A stretch of 64,000 bases of DNA. Source: Verrucomicrobiia bacterium. Its GTDB lineage: Bacteria; Verrucomicrobiota; Verrucomicrobiia; Limisphaerales; UBA11358. Shown here one piece after another: positions 1 through 53,935 of this stretch. Made by a program: the position numbers and the translations under genes. The notes under the pieces were generated by a model. The model was not told the DNA's origin, made no database searches, and saw nothing but the letters and a program-made list of their open reading frames with translations. Each line of letters begins with the position of its first letter. Position 1 is the first letter of the stretch. The stretch covers positions 19,674 through 83,673 of the forward strand of contig DATAST010000063.1 of assembly GCA_036269115.1 (NCBI GenBank), given 5' to 3'.

Positions 1-6
1 GCTGGC

Positions 7-1007
7 CTAGGCCTCTGCGCATGGCACGGCGCGATGAGGTCCTTGCCATTTCGGATCAAAGGCTTGGCCGTGCTTAAGGACTCCATAAATCAATCGCAGC
101 AGTTTGCGCATGGCGGCGCAGATCACCGTTTTGCCGCTTTTCCCCCGGGCGCGCAATCGCTCAGCCTGCGCGCGGATGATCGGGTTGGATCTGGAAGCGG
201 TGACCGCGGCCATGTAGAGCGCCGCTCGCAAGGGACGCGAGCCCATTTTGCTGACGTGCGCAACGCCGCGAACGCTTTTGCCGCTGTCTTTTTTGCGCGG
301 ATCCAGTCCAGCCAGGGCCACCGCTTGACCGGCGTGGTCCAATTGCTCAGGAGGAGGCAATTCGGCCACCGCAGTGGCAGCAGTGATGAGACCAACGCCG
401 CTGATCGTGTCCACCAATTCCACTTGCCGGTTCAGTTCCTGATGTTCTTTGAGGAATGTGGCGAGGGTGGCTTCGATTTCTTGGATGGTTTTGTCGAGTT
501 GGCGAACGTGACGCCGGAGCAGCCGGGCCAGAGTTTTGGATTCGGTATGCAGACGATTTTGCAGACGCGAGCGTTGGCTGACCAGAAATTGACGCAGGCG
601 GGTCAGTTCTTGCAATTGCCGCCGCTCGGGGGGAAGAGGCGTCCAAAGCCGGGGTTTCTGGGTGGCGCAGAATCGGGCAATGATCTGGGCGTCAAGCGCG
701 TCGTTTTGGGTGCGCACCAGCAGGCTATCAGCATAGCGGCGGATGCGGCGCGGATTGACCACGCTGACCTGATGCCCTTGCTGATGGAGAAAAGCGGCCA
801 GGGCTTCGCCGTAACGGCTAGTGGCTTCCATGCAGGCATGCACTTGAGGGCACCCTCCTGGCGCAGCCAGCGCTGGAGTTGCTTGAAGCCAGTCGGGCTG
901 TTGGGGAACTGGTGTTGGGCAAGCAGTTGATCTTGCTGTGGATGACGCAGGCAAACGTCGAACTTGTCTTTGCTGATATCAATGCCAAGAATGTAATAGA
1001 CTTTCAT
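7..1007 (-). pseudogene. IS110-family (DEDD/RuvC-like + Tnp) recombinase, split by a single-base frameshift at ~848-850
   Basis: The N-terminus MKVYYILGIDISK (ATG at 1007) lies in ORF 603..1025. VHACMEAT, NDALDA, SGVG, KDSGKS, LRAALYMAA and AAMRKLL lie in ORF 7..954. Adding one C to the minus-strand GCCC run joins the frames (GAPQVH). Confidence 0.9.
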
Positions 1008-1039
1008 GTTATTGGATACGGACATGAGGTCTGGCTTGG

Positions 1040-1200
1040 GGAGGCTTCGGGCGCGAACTGGCTTGTAGAGGATCTGACGTGCATACAGGCACGCCGATCT
1101 GGATACGGTTCGTTCTGGCCGAAGACGGAGAGCTGGGTCCGATCTCCGCAGGAGCTCTTGTGGCTCAAGCGCGGCTTGGGTTTACCCAGCTCCCCTCCTC
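1040..1200 (-). ncRNA. Putative IS110 bridge RNA (target-binding loop ~1128-1195, donor-binding loop ~1054-1118)
   Basis: Two stem-enclosed internal loops each carry an inner hairpin. AGCCGCGCT (1168-1176) equals the left flank + core (1248-1256). CTACAAG (1062-1068) is the reverse complement of core + left end (1243-1249). Boundaries are approximate. Confidence 0.7.
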
Positions 1201-1332
1201 AAGCGTCCTCAAGGTGTCACCTTAATCGGCAACAGCCCAAACCTACAAGCGCGGCTGTGCTGAAAGCCAGCCGCAACGGCATAGCAAGCCGAAAATCCGA
1301 AAATCCACACCTCATCGCCAAGCCTCTTCGCT

Positions 1333-1515
1333 TAGAGCGTTTTAAAAAATAATGTGGCCGTTCGGAGCGAGGATTTTTGGTGTTTTGGCGAGGCTTCAGC
1401 GAAGGAGCATGTTTGAAAACCCTTTGACTAAAGCTGAAACGACGCCAAAACCCAAAAAGACCGCTTCCCCTTCTTTTTCTTCCCGAATGGCTACAGTATT
1501 GTTTAAAACGCTCTA
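1333..1515. mobile_element. MITE, copy 1 (179 bp plus TA duplication; IS630/Tc1-like signature)
   Basis: Terminal inverted repeats GAGCGTTTTAAA(A/C)AATA match at 16/17, with TA on both sides. Near-identical to 59351-59595 in the opposite orientation. Confidence 0.8.
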
Positions 1516-1708
1516 AACGGCTTCCTCCTGCGCCAGGCTTCGGCGGCGGGACGGCGGACGAGCCGGAGGGCAGCGCGCCTCGTGATGGGACATTGGCGCA
1601 CTGCGGCCACCGCGGTTCGCCAGATCGGAAAAGATGAAAAGGCAACATACCATTAGCCATCTCTGACCCATCTCTGACCTCTTCATGATGAGCACGTCTG
1701 TCCCCCGC

Positions 1709-1900
1709 AACCCGCAACGACTCTTTCAATTGTTTGGGATTGTAAAAGTTCAACGGCAACGCCTGCACTTGCGCGCCAAATGGATTTTCGCGATTCAAGG
1801 AGTTCGTCAGGGTGATGACAGCGTGACCCGCATCAAGCAAGCGGCGGGCGATGTAACGCCCGGGGTAACCAAACGCTCCTTTTACTACGGCAAGCTTTAT
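1709..1900 (-). pseudogene. 5' fragment of an NAD(P)-binding SDR/epimerase-like gene
   Basis: The frame reads (I)KLAVVKGAFGYPGRYIARRLLDAGHAVITLTNSLNRENPFG..., a Rossmann GxxGxxG-type start. The start codon is ATA and the homology stops after ~60 codons. Confidence 0.7.
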
Positions 1901-2124
1901 GAGAGACTTGCAGTGAATCTATCCTGATGGAGCTTGGTGATATCTATAATGATGGCGCCAAGAAGCGGAGGCCAAAAATTTCAAAAGAAAAACGACATAT
2001 TCGGTTCATAGCGAATGCAAAGGGACCTCGGAATCGTGACGTTTCATGGGGCAGCTTTCGTTTCAAAAGGACAATGCCATGGGTTGATCCTTTCACGACC
2101 GCATTGTACAGGATTGTTGTAATT

Positions 2125-2670
2125 CTATTGACTTGCTTCATTTGAGACGGACGCATTGGATACGTAAAAATCCCCGTCGGCTGACATTATAATCCAATTG
2201 GTACCTTGCCTCACCTCCAGGAGGCGGTCATGTCTGCGTGTCTGAGGTAACAGAATCGCTGACGTCCTATACAAAAAGTCCTTGTCCGTTGAGCTTAATA
2301 CACCAGTCTCTATATAATCAGACAAATTTGTAAACGTTGCATTTGGATGAGCCTCACAATAAGCATTTATCTTTATCCTCACAGTATGTATGGACGACAA
2401 AAACTCAGCGTAGCTATGCACGCCTCGATCAAAATTCCGCCAAGAATAAATGTGTAGCAACGTAGCCGATCCTACTATAAACATAACACATGCACCGAGA
2501 GCGCGCGCCTTGGTCGTTCTCGCGGCCCAGACCATTGTTATGGAAAACAACACACCGATAAAAATAGAAAACACACGAAGTGGGAATTGGTGTATCCAAA
2601 CGAGGTTGTAGAAAATATAGGCACAACTAAAGGCAAGTCCAAGCCAAAACAATATCTTGCGTATTTTCAT
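2125..2670 (-). CDS. Hypothetical membrane protein, candidate immunity protein for the upstream RHS toxin
   Basis: MKIRKILFWLGL... has about three hydrophobic segments plus a soluble C-terminal part. It is AT-rich and starts 7 nt after the RHS stop. Confidence 0.6.
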   Translation of the reverse strand: MKIRKILFWLGLAFSCAYIFYNLVWIHQFPLRVFSIFIGVLFSITMVWAARTTKARALGACVMFIVGSATLLHIYSWRNFDRGVHSYAEFLSSIHTVRIKINAYCEAHPNATFTNLSDYIETGVLSSTDKDFLYRTSAILLPQTRRHDRLLEVRQGTNWIIMSADGDFYVSNASVSNEASQ

Positions 2671-2677
2671 GTAAAAG

Positions 2678-4195
2678 CTAGCCCGCCGTAGGTATCCAAT
2701 CAGAATATACGGGCGGCAGTACGTTTGGAAATTCTTTGTTAACAGTGTCAATGAATATAAAGCTTGGAAATGGATATGTTGGATAAGCTGGATCGTTCAA
2801 ATTTTGATTAGTCGTCATGATATGCCACCTTTTGCACGGCCCGACGTGCACAATTTGCCCATCTTGAACACAGACGCGACAAACTTCAAAATGAAGACAC
2901 GTACTAAAAGCCCGTGGCTTATCATTGAAGAGCGCTGACGATTCTCCTGGAGGACCAAGCAGCGGCAAGGTGTCTCGGTAATACGGGGTGCTGCTGAAGC
3001 GCCCGCTGTCAACACGCGGAAACCCGCCGAAAGTTAAGCCTATTCCCTCGTCGTAGAGATTTCCGCCAATAACAACTTGGATGTATTTAATTGTTGTCCC
3101 ATGACAAGGGCGTGCATTCCAGGTGGTCACGCCGGTCGTAAGGCCGAAAGGATCGAACTGATTAATTTCCTCATTTCTGACCAAAGCGTACAAGTTCAGA
3201 CCGCCTCTTTCTTGAATGGGGTCCCTGTTTAGCCATCGTCCCAAGTTCGGATCATAAAAGCGTCTTTCGTAATAATATAACGCTGAATTATCATTCCAAT
3301 ACTTAGATGAAAACCGATACTTGTTAAAATTCATCAAAGGCCCGCTCATGGCAAGTGTGTTGCCGAAAGGGTCATAAAGATATTTTGCGGCAAGCTGCTG
3401 ATTCGGGAAAATGAGGGCAGTGACGTTGCCATTGCCGTCCGCGTGGTAAAACGCCGTAGTCGGTGCACCGGGAATCTCTTGACCAAAGGTCGTCCGCGCG
3501 AGCAACCCACCGATGCCGCCGGCACCTTGTAAGCTCCCGCTTAGGTCCAGCCCGCGTGAATAACTGACCATCGGAACGTTGCCCGCATTGCGTTCCTCGA
3601 TGACCACGCTTCCATCGTAAATGAAATGGACTTCATTGGTCAGCAGATACGAGTTGGAAGAAGGAAGATAGGCGTAATTGCGTTCGATTCTTCGGCGCAT
3701 CTTGCCGTCGTAAGCAAAACTGTTGCTCCAGACGTTGGTGAGCCATGCCGCAATCAATTCATTTTCGTCGTCATAGGCGAAATTCCTGTAGCCATCGTTT
3801 GTGAGATTGCCGTTCAGGTCATAACCGTACGTGTTTGTCCCGAGCAGGTTTACCGTGATCGAATTTGTCGAAAAGTTCAGGGAGCTGTCTTCGCCGATGG
3901 CTGCGTAAATGTTTACTCCGTTGGTTGGCGTGAATCCGCCCAAAGCGAATGTCCCGTCCGCGTAGCGATTAGCGGTCAAACCATTAACCGTCACGCTCGT
4001 GGCCGGAATTGTCGTTGTCCCGGCCACCGTGAGCGTTCCCTGGTTGGTGGCGATCGTCAATTCGTTCAGATTATTGACGTTAAACGTTTGGATCAGGGCG
4101 TTGTTTGTCCGGAAATTCGCCGAGGCAACGCGAGCCCGTCCAGTAAATGATCCAGAGTTTGCCATAACCAAGCCTTCATGTTCTTCCTCGCGCAA
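2678..4195 (-). CDS. RHS/YD-repeat protein, N-terminally truncated, with a C-terminal toxin-like domain
   Basis: YGYDLNGNL and YLYDPFG repeats, the core YYERRFYDPNLGRWLNRDPI...GGLNLY, and the DPFGL boundary followed by ~155 aa of unrelated sequence. Confidence 0.85.
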   Translation of the reverse strand: MREEEHEGLVMANSGSFTGRARVASANFRTNNALIQTFNVNNLNELTIATNQGTLTVAGTTTIPATSVTVNGLTANRYADGTFALGGFTPTNGVNIYAAIGEDSSLNFSTNSITVNLLGTNTYGYDLNGNLTNDGYRNFAYDDENELIAAWLTNVWSNSFAYDGKMRRRIERNYAYLPSSNSYLLTNEVHFIYDGSVVIEERNAGNVPMVSYSRGLDLSGSLQGAGGIGGLLARTTFGQEIPGAPTTAFYHADGNGNVTALIFPNQQLAAKYLYDPFGNTLAMSGPLMNFNKYRFSSKYWNDNSALYYYERRFYDPNLGRWLNRDPIQERGGLNLYALVRNEEINQFDPFGLTTGVTTWNARPCHGTTIKYIQVVIGGNLYDEGIGLTFGGFPRVDSGRFSSTPYYRDTLPLLGPPGESSALFNDKPRAFSTCLHFEVCRVCVQDGQIVHVGPCKRWHIMTTNQNLNDPAYPTYPFPSFIFIDTVNKEFPNVLPPVYSDWIPTAG

Positions 4196-53502: not shown

Positions 53503-53935
53503 CTAATCTAGCCCCTTTAGCTGAGTTGACGATGCTTTCGGTCCCCACACGGGAGTCGATGCGGCCATATCTACAGATGAATGGATAGCCCTCGATGTCC
53601 ACGCCCTCGGGATGCCCAATTGGGTGCTTTCCGTTCGGTTTGACTGGCTTTTTACTGACTATGAAATTTGCCGCGGAATGGTTGTCGATCTTCCAATCCG
53701 AACCATCCAGCCGCAGCAGCAACGACACGATGAGTCCTTTGTATCGCTCGTGGCCGGATATGGTCTCGCCATAGACTCCGACTACTCGGCCGTTCTCCTC
53801 AATTGCGCCTGAAATCTTCAAAGCGAAAGGACTTGGGTCGTTGATGAATTCATAGCGGCCCTGGCCATGGACGATTTGAATATCTTCCGACGGCGTCACC
53901 GTTACAACGGAACCAATTTGCGCAATCGAGGGCAT
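53489..53935 (-). CDS. Hypothetical protein (148 aa)
   Basis: ATG-started ORF with protein-like composition and no recognised motif. Confidence 0.6.
   Translation of the reverse strand: MPSIAQIGSVVTVTPSEDIQIVHGQGRYEFINDPSPFALKISGAIEENGRVVGVYGETISGHERYKGLIVSLLLRLDGSDWKIDNHSAANFIVSKKPVKPNGKHPIGHPEGVDIEGYPFICRYGRIDSRVGTESIVNSAKGARLAQQT

What the first reader, a model, noticed from the sequence alone, without database searches (positions are those of the whole stretch)
1008..1256. IS110 bridge-RNA-like end whose four guide segments can be read and partly verified against its own junction
On the minus strand the non-coding end folds into two loops, each with an outer stem and an inner hairpin. 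Loop 1 (stem GAGCTGGGT/ACCCAGCTC) contains AGCCGCGCT and TGCGGAG. Loop 2 contains ACCGTATC and CTACAAG. AGCCGCGCT is identical (9/9) to the flank + CT core at 1248-1256, and CTACAAG pairs (7/7) with core + left end CTTGTAG at 1243-1249. This is the layout of the IS621 bridge RNA. It predicts a target of AGCCGCG-CT-CCGCA and a donor of ACCGTAT-CT-TGTAG, i.e. a natural programmable recombinase with a readable specificity.
Basis: partly seen in the sequence, partly recalled or inferred. Interest (0 to 1): 0.75.

Follow-up and report, generated by a model that had tools for sequence, protein, structure and literature searches.

The report
IS110 element with readable bridge RNA
This is a roughly 1.38-kb IS110-family insertion sequence sitting in a repeated hairpin element of a soil bacterium; its left end encodes a typical bridge RNA whose guide segments match its own junctions, so it is a correct but ordinary example of a system described in 2024, and this copy's recombinase gene is broken.

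Summary

- **Structure:** On the minus strand, window 1233-1045 folds into two small 5' hairpins and two stem/internal-loop modules.
- **Guide matches:** All four guide segments match the element's own junctions.
  - LTG: 9/9 with flank + CT.
  - RDG: 7/7 with CT + left end.
  - LDG: 8/9 with the right end, ACCGTAT-CT. This end lies about 120 nt outside the window and was retrieved from the genome.
  - RTG: CT + CCG exact.
- **Correction 1:** The predicted CCGCA is actually CCGTG.
- **Relatives:** In 31 relatives the left target guide tracks the flank (6.87/7 against 4.87 permuted, 0/10,000). The stems show compensatory changes, and a sigma-70-like promoter is rebuilt across the circle junction.
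- **Target:** The target is a REP-like hairpin repeat, with about 60 matching sites in this genome.
- **Mobility:** In another soil study a near-identical copy occupies a different copy of that repeat, with CT at both ends.
- **Correction 2:** This copy's recombinase has a frameshift and a premature stop, so it is not an active programmable recombinase.
- **Closest solved proteins:** ISCro4 and IS621.
- **Verdict:** A new member of a known kind, of modest interest.

The parts
1250..1294 (-). Left flank: the 3' part of a REP-like hairpin repeat (...GCGGCTGG-loop-CACAGCCGCG). The left target (LT) AGCCGCG lies at 1256-1250.
   Evidence: 15 other places in the genome match window 1294-1248, and all matches stop at 1248; about 97 REP-type copies, of which 65 carry AGCCGCG before CT-CC[G/A].
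1248..1249 (-). Core dinucleotide CT at the left junction. The second copy of CT lies at the right junction, outside the window.
   Evidence: CT is found at both junctions in 27 of 29 relatives with both ends.
1240..1245 (-). Candidate -10 hexamer TAGGTT. It would be completed by a -35 TTGAAA in the right end only when the element is circular (spacer 17).
   Evidence: TTGA[A/C]N-N17-TA[T/G]NTT is conserved across the reconstructed RE-LE junction in nearly all of the 29 loci listed (L019 lacks the -35). This is a consensus-level inference only.
1197..1233 (-). Two 5' hairpins: H1 at 1233-1216 and H2 at 1214-1197.
   Evidence: H2 is 99% paired with compensatory CG/UA changes (17 against 13 sequences). 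H1 varies in sequence but keeps pairing; its alignment is shifted in some rows.
1127..1195 (-). Target-binding loop module. It has a 12-bp outer stem and an inner hairpin at 1166-1152. LTG AGCCGCGCU lies at 1176-1168, RTG UGCGGAG at 1150-1144, and the handshake guide AU at 1143-1142.
   Evidence: the outer stem is 97.8% paired with 8 of 12 pairs compensatory, and the inner hairpin is 96.8% paired. LTG covaries with the flank. The AU handshake guide pairs with donor positions 6-7 (AT), as defined.
1045..1124 (-). Donor-binding loop module. It has an outer stem (CUUCGG/CCGAAG and GAAC/GUUC) and an inner hairpin at 1099-1071. LDG ACCGUAUCC lies at 1109-1101, RDG CUACAAG at 1068-1062, and the handshake guide CC at 1061-1060.
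   Evidence: helix 6 is 92.7% paired and helix 7 is 80% paired. RDG CUACAAG goes with CTTGTAG, and AUACAAG goes with CTTGTAT. LDG is invariant except for its 9th base.
1..1007 (-). IS110-family recombinase gene (DEDD RuvC-like domain plus Tnp domain), broken in this copy. There is a frameshift in the C-run at 850-848 and a premature TAG at 9-7. The normal stop and the roughly 75-nt right end lie outside the window. In window-equivalent coordinates, LD ACCGTAT is at -120..-126, core CT at -127/-128 and RT CCGTG at -129..-133 (contig C63 19553-19540).
   Evidence: PF01548 and PF02371 are split over two frames; relative P0002 has Q where this copy has a stop; closest solved structures are ISCro4 (E 1e-54) and IS621 (E 2e-51); right junction.

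Best explanation
The feature is the left end of a roughly 1,376-bp IS110-group insertion sequence. It runs on the minus strand from window 1247 to about 128 nt beyond the window start.

**The RNA.** The left end encodes a bridge RNA of about 190 nt with two 5' hairpins, a target-binding loop and a donor-binding loop.
- That site is the 3' arm and foot of a REP-like hairpin repeat present about 60-100 times in this genome.
- In the donor-binding loop, LDG ACCGUAUC and RDG CUACAAG recognise the joined ends ACCGTAT-CT-TGTAG of the excised circle.

**The inferred mechanism.** By analogy with IS621, the circle rebuilds a sigma-70-like promoter (TTGAAA-N17-TAGGTT) across the junction and so drives the RNA. 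A recombinase tetramer holding the RNA pairs target and donor, and the strands are exchanged at the CT core.

**What is shown here:**
- the anatomy;
- all four guide-junction matches;
- covariation of guides with flanks and of stem pairs in relatives;
- an independent insertion of a near-identical copy into another copy of the same repeat;
- contigs from soil metatranscriptome libraries, belonging to close relatives, that span the predicted RNA.

**What is inferred:** the circular intermediate, promoter use, and catalysis.

This particular copy is inactive in cis, because its recombinase gene has a frameshift and a premature stop.
For: **Own junctions.**
- LTG matches 9/9, RDG 7/7 and LDG 8/9.
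- RTG matches core + CCG exactly. Its remaining two bases could form G.T and U.G wobbles.

**Handshake guides.** As defined by Hiraizumi et al., the AU after the RTG pairs with donor positions 6-7 (AT), and the C after the RDG pairs with target G7. These guides are conserved in 27/32 and 32/32 loci respectively.

**Covariation with DNA outside the element.**
- Relatives with flanks AGTCGCG, ACCCGCG, GACCGCG, GTCGGCG, GTCCGCG, GCCGGCG, TTCGGCG, CGCCGCG, GTCTGCG, ATCTGCG and GCCTACG carry the same 7-mer in the loop.
- Permutation gives 0/10,000.
- RT positions 1-3 match the guide in 25/25, 25/25 and 20/25 loci.

**RNA structure.** 84% of cells are paired, against 33-47% for slid controls. 33 pairs show changes on both sides.

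**Protein.** The two IS110 Pfam domains are present. The nearest solved structures are the bridge recombinases ISCro4 and IS621. Invariant D16/E67/D109/D112/S248 columns in the relatives' alignment are also present in this copy's two ORF pieces; their catalytic role is inferred, not tested here.

**Junction promoter.** It is conserved in nearly all of the 29 loci listed.

**Mobility.**
- In runs X4 and X10, from another study, the REP copy at G000:C77 is occupied. That site is empty in this genome.
- The junctions there read AGCCGCGCT|TGTAG... and ...ACCGTAT|CTCCGTG, with CT present at both ends.
- That copy has an open frame at the C-run.

**Transcription of close relatives.** Contigs from four soil metatranscriptome libraries span window 1231-1035, 1214-1025, 1212-974 and 1178-946. 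They carry a compensatory U-A to C-G change in the donor-loop hairpin.
Against: - There is no RNA or activity evidence for this copy itself. The metatranscriptome contigs are 95-97% identical relatives, are unstranded, and may include DNA.
- No contig spanning a circle junction was seen.
- The recombinase gene is broken twice, and the frameshift is reproduced in the assemblies of two runs.
- The 9th LDG base (C) does not match core T. The last two RTG bases do not match RT by Watson-Crick pairing.
- No Rfam family matched, so there is no independent curated RNA model.
- The promoter is only a consensus match, and its -10 (TAGGTT) is weaker than in relatives.
Confidence: 0.93

Rival explanations
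1. The repeated segments are protein-binding subterminal repeats of the element. They would be DNA sites for the transposase rather than RNA guides, and the fold would be incidental.
For: The donor-side segments (ACCGTATC, [C/A]TACAAG) are almost invariant in the family, as protein sites would be. There is no direct RNA evidence for this copy.
Against: - The LTG tracks DNA that lies outside the element and differs between insertion sites. A protein site inside the element cannot explain that.
- The stems flanking the loops show many compensatory changes.
- The homologous proteins IS621 and ISCro4 are experimentally RNA-guided.
Confidence: 0.02
2. It is a dead relic. Both the RNA gene and the recombinase are non-functional remnants, and the junction matches merely record a past insertion.
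For: The recombinase has a frameshift and a premature stop. The genome holds a single copy. The -10 TAGGTT is weaker than the TAGATT of the copy in run X4.
Against: - The RNA region is intact in every helix and guide, and is at least 99% identical to the copy in run X4, which has an open frame at the C-run and sits at a different site.
- All of the conserved catalytic-position residues are retained, so the decay is recent.
- This rival concerns the state of this copy, not what the feature is. It is compatible with the main explanation.
Confidence: 0.6
3. It is an IS1111-group element with a seekRNA-type guide encoded in the right end, and the left-end fold is unrelated.
For: The Pfam domains are the same in both groups.
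Against: - The non-coding left end is long (242 nt before the ATG), while the right end is short (about 75 nt after the normal stop).
- All four guides lie upstream of the gene.
- The nearest solved proteins are the IS110-group enzymes IS621 and ISCro4.
Confidence: 0.01

Closest known systems
IS621 of Escherichia coli (bridge RNA and bridge recombinase; Durrant et al. 2024, PMC11208160; Hiraizumi et al. 2024, PMC11208158)
   Same: - The domain pair is the same, and the protein matches chain 8wt6 at E 2e-51.
- The RNA is encoded in the left end and has a 5' stem-loop region, a target-binding loop and a donor-binding loop.
- LTG and LDG are identical to the top strand, and RTG and RDG are complementary to it.
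- The core is CT.
- Handshake dinucleotides follow the RTG and the RDG.
- A promoter is rebuilt across the RE-LE junction.
- The natural targets are REP hairpin repeats.
   Different: - The target is AGCCGCG-CT-CCG here, against ATCAGGC-CT-AC in IS621.
- The effective RTG is core + 3 here, against core + 2.
- There are two 5' hairpins here instead of one.
- The recombinase has a roughly 30-residue C-terminal tail absent from IS621.
- No plasmid-borne IS110-family homologue reaches 60% protein identity to the close relative P0002 (best about 44%); identity to IS621 itself was not computed.
- The host is a soil bacterium whose nearest named relatives are Verrucomicrobiia MAGs.
ISCro4 bridge recombinase (PDB 9t56)
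   Same: It is the best match among solved structures (E 1e-54, aligned over residues 10-325). The motifs GIDxSK, CMEATS, DAxDA and (E/D)SG are shared.
   Different: Sequence identity is distant. The RNA of ISCro4 was not compared here.
REP-targeting IS110 elements of Pseudomonas putida (ISPpu9, PMC12288879; ISPpu10, bioRxiv 10.64898/2026.03.19.712850, abstracts only)
   Same: These are IS110-family elements that insert into one conserved repeated extragenic palindrome of their host.
   Different: The host phylum and the repeat are different. Their sequences were not compared here. The comparison rests on the papers' abstracts.

Membership tests
IS110 family, IS110 group (bridge recombinase plus bridge RNA) | Recombinase with an N-terminal DEDD RuvC-like domain and a C-terminal Tnp domain carrying the catalytic serine | tested here: met
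   PF01548 and PF02371 are both found. Homology to IS621 and ISCro4 chains. Invariant D16, E67, D109, D112 and S248 in relatives are also present in this copy. The gene is split by a frameshift and truncated by a stop.
IS110 family, IS110 group (bridge recombinase plus bridge RNA) | Long non-coding left end encoding an RNA with a 5' stem-loop and two stem/internal-loop modules | tested here: met
   Single-sequence fold z = -3.8. The alignment of 31 loci is 84% paired against 33-47% for slid controls, with compensatory changes in every module.
IS110 family, IS110 group (bridge recombinase plus bridge RNA) | First loop carries LTG (equal to top-strand LT + core) and RTG (complement of core + RT), and both covary with the insertion site | tested here: met
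   Own copy: LTG 9/9 and RTG core + 3. Family: 6.87/7 against 4.87 permuted, 0/10,000; RT positions 1-3 match in 25/25, 25/25 and 20/25.
IS110 family, IS110 group (bridge recombinase plus bridge RNA) | Second loop carries LDG (equal to LD + core) and RDG (complement of core + RD), matching the element's own ends | tested here: met
   LDG 8/9 with the right end ACCGTAT-CT. RDG 7/7 with CT-TGTAG. The RDG C/A base covaries with the G/T at the left end. The 9th LDG base varies in the family.
IS110 family, IS110 group (bridge recombinase plus bridge RNA) | Conserved core dinucleotide present at both junctions, with no terminal inverted repeats | tested here: met
   CT is present at both junctions here and in the independent insertion, where the two junction contigs overlap by exactly CT. 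By eye, the ends TGTAGGTTTGG and ...ACACACCGTAT are not inverted repeats.
IS110 family, IS110 group (bridge recombinase plus bridge RNA) | Handshake guides: the dinucleotide after the RTG pairs with donor positions 6-7, and the dinucleotide after the RDG pairs with target positions 6-7 | tested here: met
   AU pairs with donor AT (2/2). CC pairs with target CG at G7 only (1/2), as reported for wild-type IS621.
IS110 family, IS110 group (bridge recombinase plus bridge RNA) | Promoter reconstituted across the RE-LE junction of the circular form | tested here: inconclusive
   TTGAAA-N17-TAGGTT is found in the joined ends, and the arrangement is conserved in nearly all of the 29 loci listed. This is a consensus match only. 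Metatranscriptome contigs of relatives start about 9 nt after the -10.
IS110 family, IS110 group (bridge recombinase plus bridge RNA) | Circular intermediate and RNA-dependent recombination | not testable with these tools
   No circle-junction contig was seen in the runs laid. Activity needs an experiment.
Rfam curated RNA families | Match to a curated covariance model | tested here: not met
   No family reached even E = 1 in window 1-3000, and no hit resembled a bridge RNA. The library apparently holds no model that recognises this RNA.

The most novel reading that the evidence does not exclude
One REP copy (G000:C270, about position 53,535) reads ...GGGACAC-ACCGTAT-CT-CCGTG. Its left-target 7-mer AGCCGCG is replaced exactly by the element's left-donor 7-mer, with no element present. 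This is seen in the assemblies of three runs.

The ordinary reading is a deletion of a former insertion between two ACACA microhomologies. The more novel reading is that IS110 elements have a recombinase- or RNA-dependent excision or abortive pathway that leaves the donor half-site behind. That would convert a target into a site that can no longer be recognised by the target loop, a kind of target immunisation, and would leave a countable record of past insertions.
Probability: 0.1. Interest if true: 0.5.

Novelty: new member of a known kind. Interest (0 to 1): 0.3.

Why it matters
This shows that a bridge RNA's specificity can be read from raw sequence and verified against the element's own junctions, the empty sites in the genome, and an independent insertion in another sample.

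It adds a well-documented natural example from a soil bacterium whose nearest named relatives are Verrucomicrobiia. The clade has a conserved donor (ACCGTAT-CT-TGTA[G/T]) and varied targets, and about 60-100 identical landing sites per genome.

It does not change what is known about the mechanism. As a source of an enzyme it is only a pointer to intact relatives, because this copy is broken.

Tried and rejected
- **Rfam scan of window 1-3000 at E <= 10.** Only chance-level hits to eukaryotic miRNA and snoRNA models.
- **Relatives in reference genomes.** The scan of one genome per species found a single partial relative, a Verrucomicrobiia MAG at 82% identity. A search of 301 genomes of the same order found only one 45%-identical homologue. 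Relatives were therefore taken from metagenome contigs.
- **RNAalifold on the alignment.** It paired the left terminus with the RDG. This is the RNA-DNA guide relation mistaken for an intramolecular helix, so a manual structure was used instead.
- **A long-range helix closing both loops, suggested by the single-sequence fold.** Dropped, because hairpin H2 has covariation support and uses the same bases.
- **The 11-nt identity AGCCGCGCTTG between the junction and the loop.** The extra TG is the foot of the inner hairpin and is not conserved in relatives (GCTAGAG in four), so it is not counted as a guide.
- **A joint in run X3 skipping window 996-1194.** It has a 20-nt side and 14% mismatches. 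Treated as another organism.
- **An Enterobacter plasmid IS110 element.** Fetched as a named comparator, but its left end was too different to align by eye. Not pursued.
- **Two 2026 preprints on half-match excision and REP dual-match logic.** They could not be opened.
- **The empty state of this copy's own site in run X4.** Coverage was too low to show it.

Full report
**1. What is at the coordinates**

The window's first 1,249 bases carry an IS110-family element on the minus strand. The window lies at contig C63:19674-83673 of a 6.28-Mb, 285-contig genome.

- Two overlapping ORFs (1025-603 and 954-7) carry the two Pfam domains of the family, DEDD_Tnp_IS110 and Transposase_20. The first domain is split between the two frames.
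- Upstream of the ATG at 1007, the minus strand reads flank ...CACAGCCGCG-CT-TGTAGGTTTGGG....
  - AGCCGCGCT at 1256-1248 and again at 1176-1168;
  - CTTGTAG at 1249-1243 and its complement CTACAAG at 1068-1062;
  - TGCGGAG at 1150-1144;
  - ACCGTATC at 1109-1102.
- The quoted stem is part of a 12-bp helix (1195-1184 with 1138-1127).
- The 249-nt stretch folds at -100.4 kcal/mol, with z = -3.8 against dinucleotide shuffles.

**2.

The right end is not in the window, so I laid out the genome and read on.

- About 120 nt beyond the window start, the minus strand reads ...TTGAAATAACAC-ACCGTAT-CT-CCGTGAGAATTG.
- The donor-side prediction (right end ...ACCGTAT-CT) is therefore exact.
- The predicted right target CCGCA is in fact CCGTG. 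The first three bases agree, and the other two could only form G.T and U.G wobbles with UGCGGAG.
- The element is about 1,376 bp counting one CT.

**3. The target is a repeat**

The left flank belongs to a REP-like hairpin repeat.

- 15 other places in the genome match window 1294-1248, and all of them stop at 1248.
- The uninterrupted site AGCCGCGCTCCGTG occurs 16 times, and AGCCGCGCTCCG occurs 73 times.
- About 97 copies have the 5' arm GCGGCTG within 45 nt. In these, the bases after CT are C (81), C (79) and G (70), then mixed.
- LT is the 3' arm of the hairpin, and the CT core sits at its foot.
- Joining the two flanks of this insertion reproduces the empty-site sequence seen elsewhere in the genome.

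**4. Comparison with the published definition**

Durrant et al. [quoted passage not shown] The same applies to LDG and RDG. They also state that the LTG has nine bases, that the RTG has four in IS621 but is longer in some orthologues, that the circle rebuilds a promoter across the core, and that IS621 targets REP elements.

Hiraizumi et al. 2024 add handshake guides. These are the two bases 3' of the RTG, which pair with donor top-strand positions 6-7 after exchange, and the two bases 3' of the RDG, which pair with target positions 6-7.

Here the RTG is followed by AU, and donor positions 6-7 are AT. The RDG is followed by CC, and target position 7 is G. The score is 2/2 and 1/2, and the one-pair pattern is the same as described for wild-type IS621.

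**5. Relatives**

- A search of the large protein collection gave 860 proteins at E < 1e-30. Intact relatives are 353-359 aa long.
- A metagenome scan gave 80 loci.
- 31 loci share the donor-loop motif ACCGTATC and could be aligned over the left end.
- The left boundary CT|TGTA[G/T] is invariant.
- The loop 7-mer follows the flank. AGTCGCG, ACCCGCG, GACCGCG, GTCGGCG, GTCCGCG, GCCGGCG, TTCGGCG, CGCCGCG, GTCTGCG, ATCTGCG and GCCTACG each appear both outside the element and in its loop.
- Over 15 distinct pairs, identity is 6.87/7 against 4.87 for permuted pairings, and no permutation of 10,000 reached the observed value.
- RDG CUACAAG goes with CTTGTAG, and AUACAAG goes with CTTGTAT.
- RT positions 1-3 match the guide in 25/25, 25/25 and 20/25 distinct loci, including changes to CCC, CCT and ACG. 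I did not tabulate RT positions 4-5 individually (the script stopped), but extending the comparison from 3 to 5 bases adds about as much identity as in permuted pairings.
- The 9th LDG base is C, U or A in different relatives. The C opposite core T in this copy is therefore typical of the family.

**6. RNA structure**

On the 31-sequence alignment, a structure of two 5' hairpins, the target-loop outer stem and inner hairpin, and the donor-loop outer stem and inner hairpin was tested.

| Measure | Result |
|---|---|
| Cells paired, whole structure | 84% |
| Cells paired, slid controls | 33-47% |
| Pairs with changes on both sides | 33 |
| Column shuffles reaching the observed covariation score | 0 of 500 |
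| Target-loop outer stem | 97.8% paired, 8 of 12 pairs compensatory |

Two helices (H1 and the outermost donor stem) score lower because the sequence alignment is shifted there. No curated Rfam model matched.

**7. Promoter and transcription**

- Joining right and left ends gives TTGAAA-N17-TAGGTT. The same arrangement (TTGAC/TTGAA-N17-TATNTT, preceded by an A-tract) is found in nearly all of the 29 loci listed.
- In the integrated state the -35 position is occupied by REP sequence.
- Contigs from four soil metatranscriptome libraries of different studies, 95-97% identical to this left end, span window 1231-1035, 1214-1025, 1212-974 and 1178-946. None reaches the terminus or the flank.
- All four carry T>C at 1080 and A>G at 1091. 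Together these turn a U-A pair of the donor-loop hairpin into C-G.
- These contigs belong to relatives, are unstranded, and may contain DNA. They support transcription of the family's left end, not of this copy.

**8. State of this copy, and mobility**

- The frame shifts in a run of three C (minus strand 850-848).
- A CAG codon of relatives is TAG here, 20 codons before the normal stop.
- The frameshift is reproduced in the contigs of runs X1 and X2, which may include the sample of origin.
- In run X4, from another study, a copy with only a handful of differences over the parts its contigs cover has that run one base longer, which keeps the frame open.
- The X4 copy sits elsewhere. In X4 and X10 the REP copy at G000:C77 is occupied, while the same site is empty in this genome. 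The left junction reads ...AGCCGCGCT|TGTAGATTTGGG and the right junction reads ...ACCGTAT|CTCCGTGAGAATT. The two junction contigs overlap by exactly CT.
- This is an independent insertion into the same 14-mer, as the target loop specifies.
- The element is single-copy here, and its contig depth is similar to that of neighbouring contigs.

**9. Protein relatives**

The closest solved structures are ISCro4 transposase (9t56, E 1e-54) and IS621 transposase (8wt6, E 2e-51). Plasmid-borne IS110 transposases are at most about 44% identical. Columns invariant in the relatives' alignment, D16, E67, D109, D112 and S248, are present in this copy; their catalytic role is inferred from family knowledge, not tested here. 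The nearest named sources of relatives are Verrucomicrobiia and Verrucomicrobiae MAGs, and the runs that hold the sequence are soil metagenomes.

**10. Verdict**

The interpretation as an IS621-type bridge RNA is right. The predicted donor is right, and the predicted target is right except for its last two bases.

It is a new member of a known kind. It would be a new IS by name, from a little-studied soil phylum, in a clade with a conserved donor and diverse REP-type targets.

This copy is a recently inactivated one. An open-frame, near-identical copy exists in another sample.

The one item that is not fully explained is a REP copy in which the left-target 7-mer is replaced by the element's left-donor 7-mer (see Noticed in passing and the section on the most novel reading).

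Noticed in passing
G000:C270 about 53,503-53,548 (locus L101 positions 436-444); not in the window: One REP copy reads ...GAGCGGGACAC-ACCGTAT-CT-CCGTG. The usual AGCCGCG is replaced exactly by the element's left-donor 7-mer, and no element is present. Among REP-type copies, 65 have AGCCGCG and a few have single substitutions; this is the only one with ACCGTAT. The same sequence is present in contigs of runs X1, X2 and X3. The simplest reading is a former insertion deleted between the ACACA that precedes LT in the repeat and the ACACA that precedes LD in the right end.
   Followed up: partly
window about 1331-1518: A MITE-like repeat of about 187 bp with terminal inverted repeats (TTAGAGCGTTTTAAA ... 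TTTAAAACGCTCTAA) lies next to the REP copy. The genome holds about 55-60 copies at 95-98% identity. Summed word depth in the soil runs is very high, about 1,000-3,000.
   Followed up: partly
window 1250-1320 and about 97 other places in G000: A REP-like family has the consensus ...TTTGGC[C/T]TGCGAAGCTGCTGCGGCTGG-(variable loop)-CACAGCCGCGCTCCG. It forms an 8-bp hairpin (TGCGGCTG/CAGCCGCG). Relatives of the element in metagenomes sit in similar hairpins with other 7-mers.
   Followed up: partly
G000:C69 3819-4622, C81 114911-115576, C138 22690-23070: Three further IS110-family recombinase genes or fragments are only 30-32% identical to this one. Their non-coding ends were not examined.
   Followed up: no
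loci L022 and L023 (metagenome relatives): In these two relatives the right end reads ACCGTATCCTCCG, with one extra C before CT, and the dinucleotide after the RTG is UC or UU instead of AU. Two metatranscriptome contigs (runs X23 and X25) have C instead of U at the last LTG base (window 1168). This may be a variant register or core in a sub-clade.
   Followed up: no
window 996-1194, run X3: One low-depth contig of a diverged relative appears to skip 199 nt of the left end, which is most of both loops. The matching side is only 20 nt long, with many mismatches. It is probably another organism.
   Followed up: no
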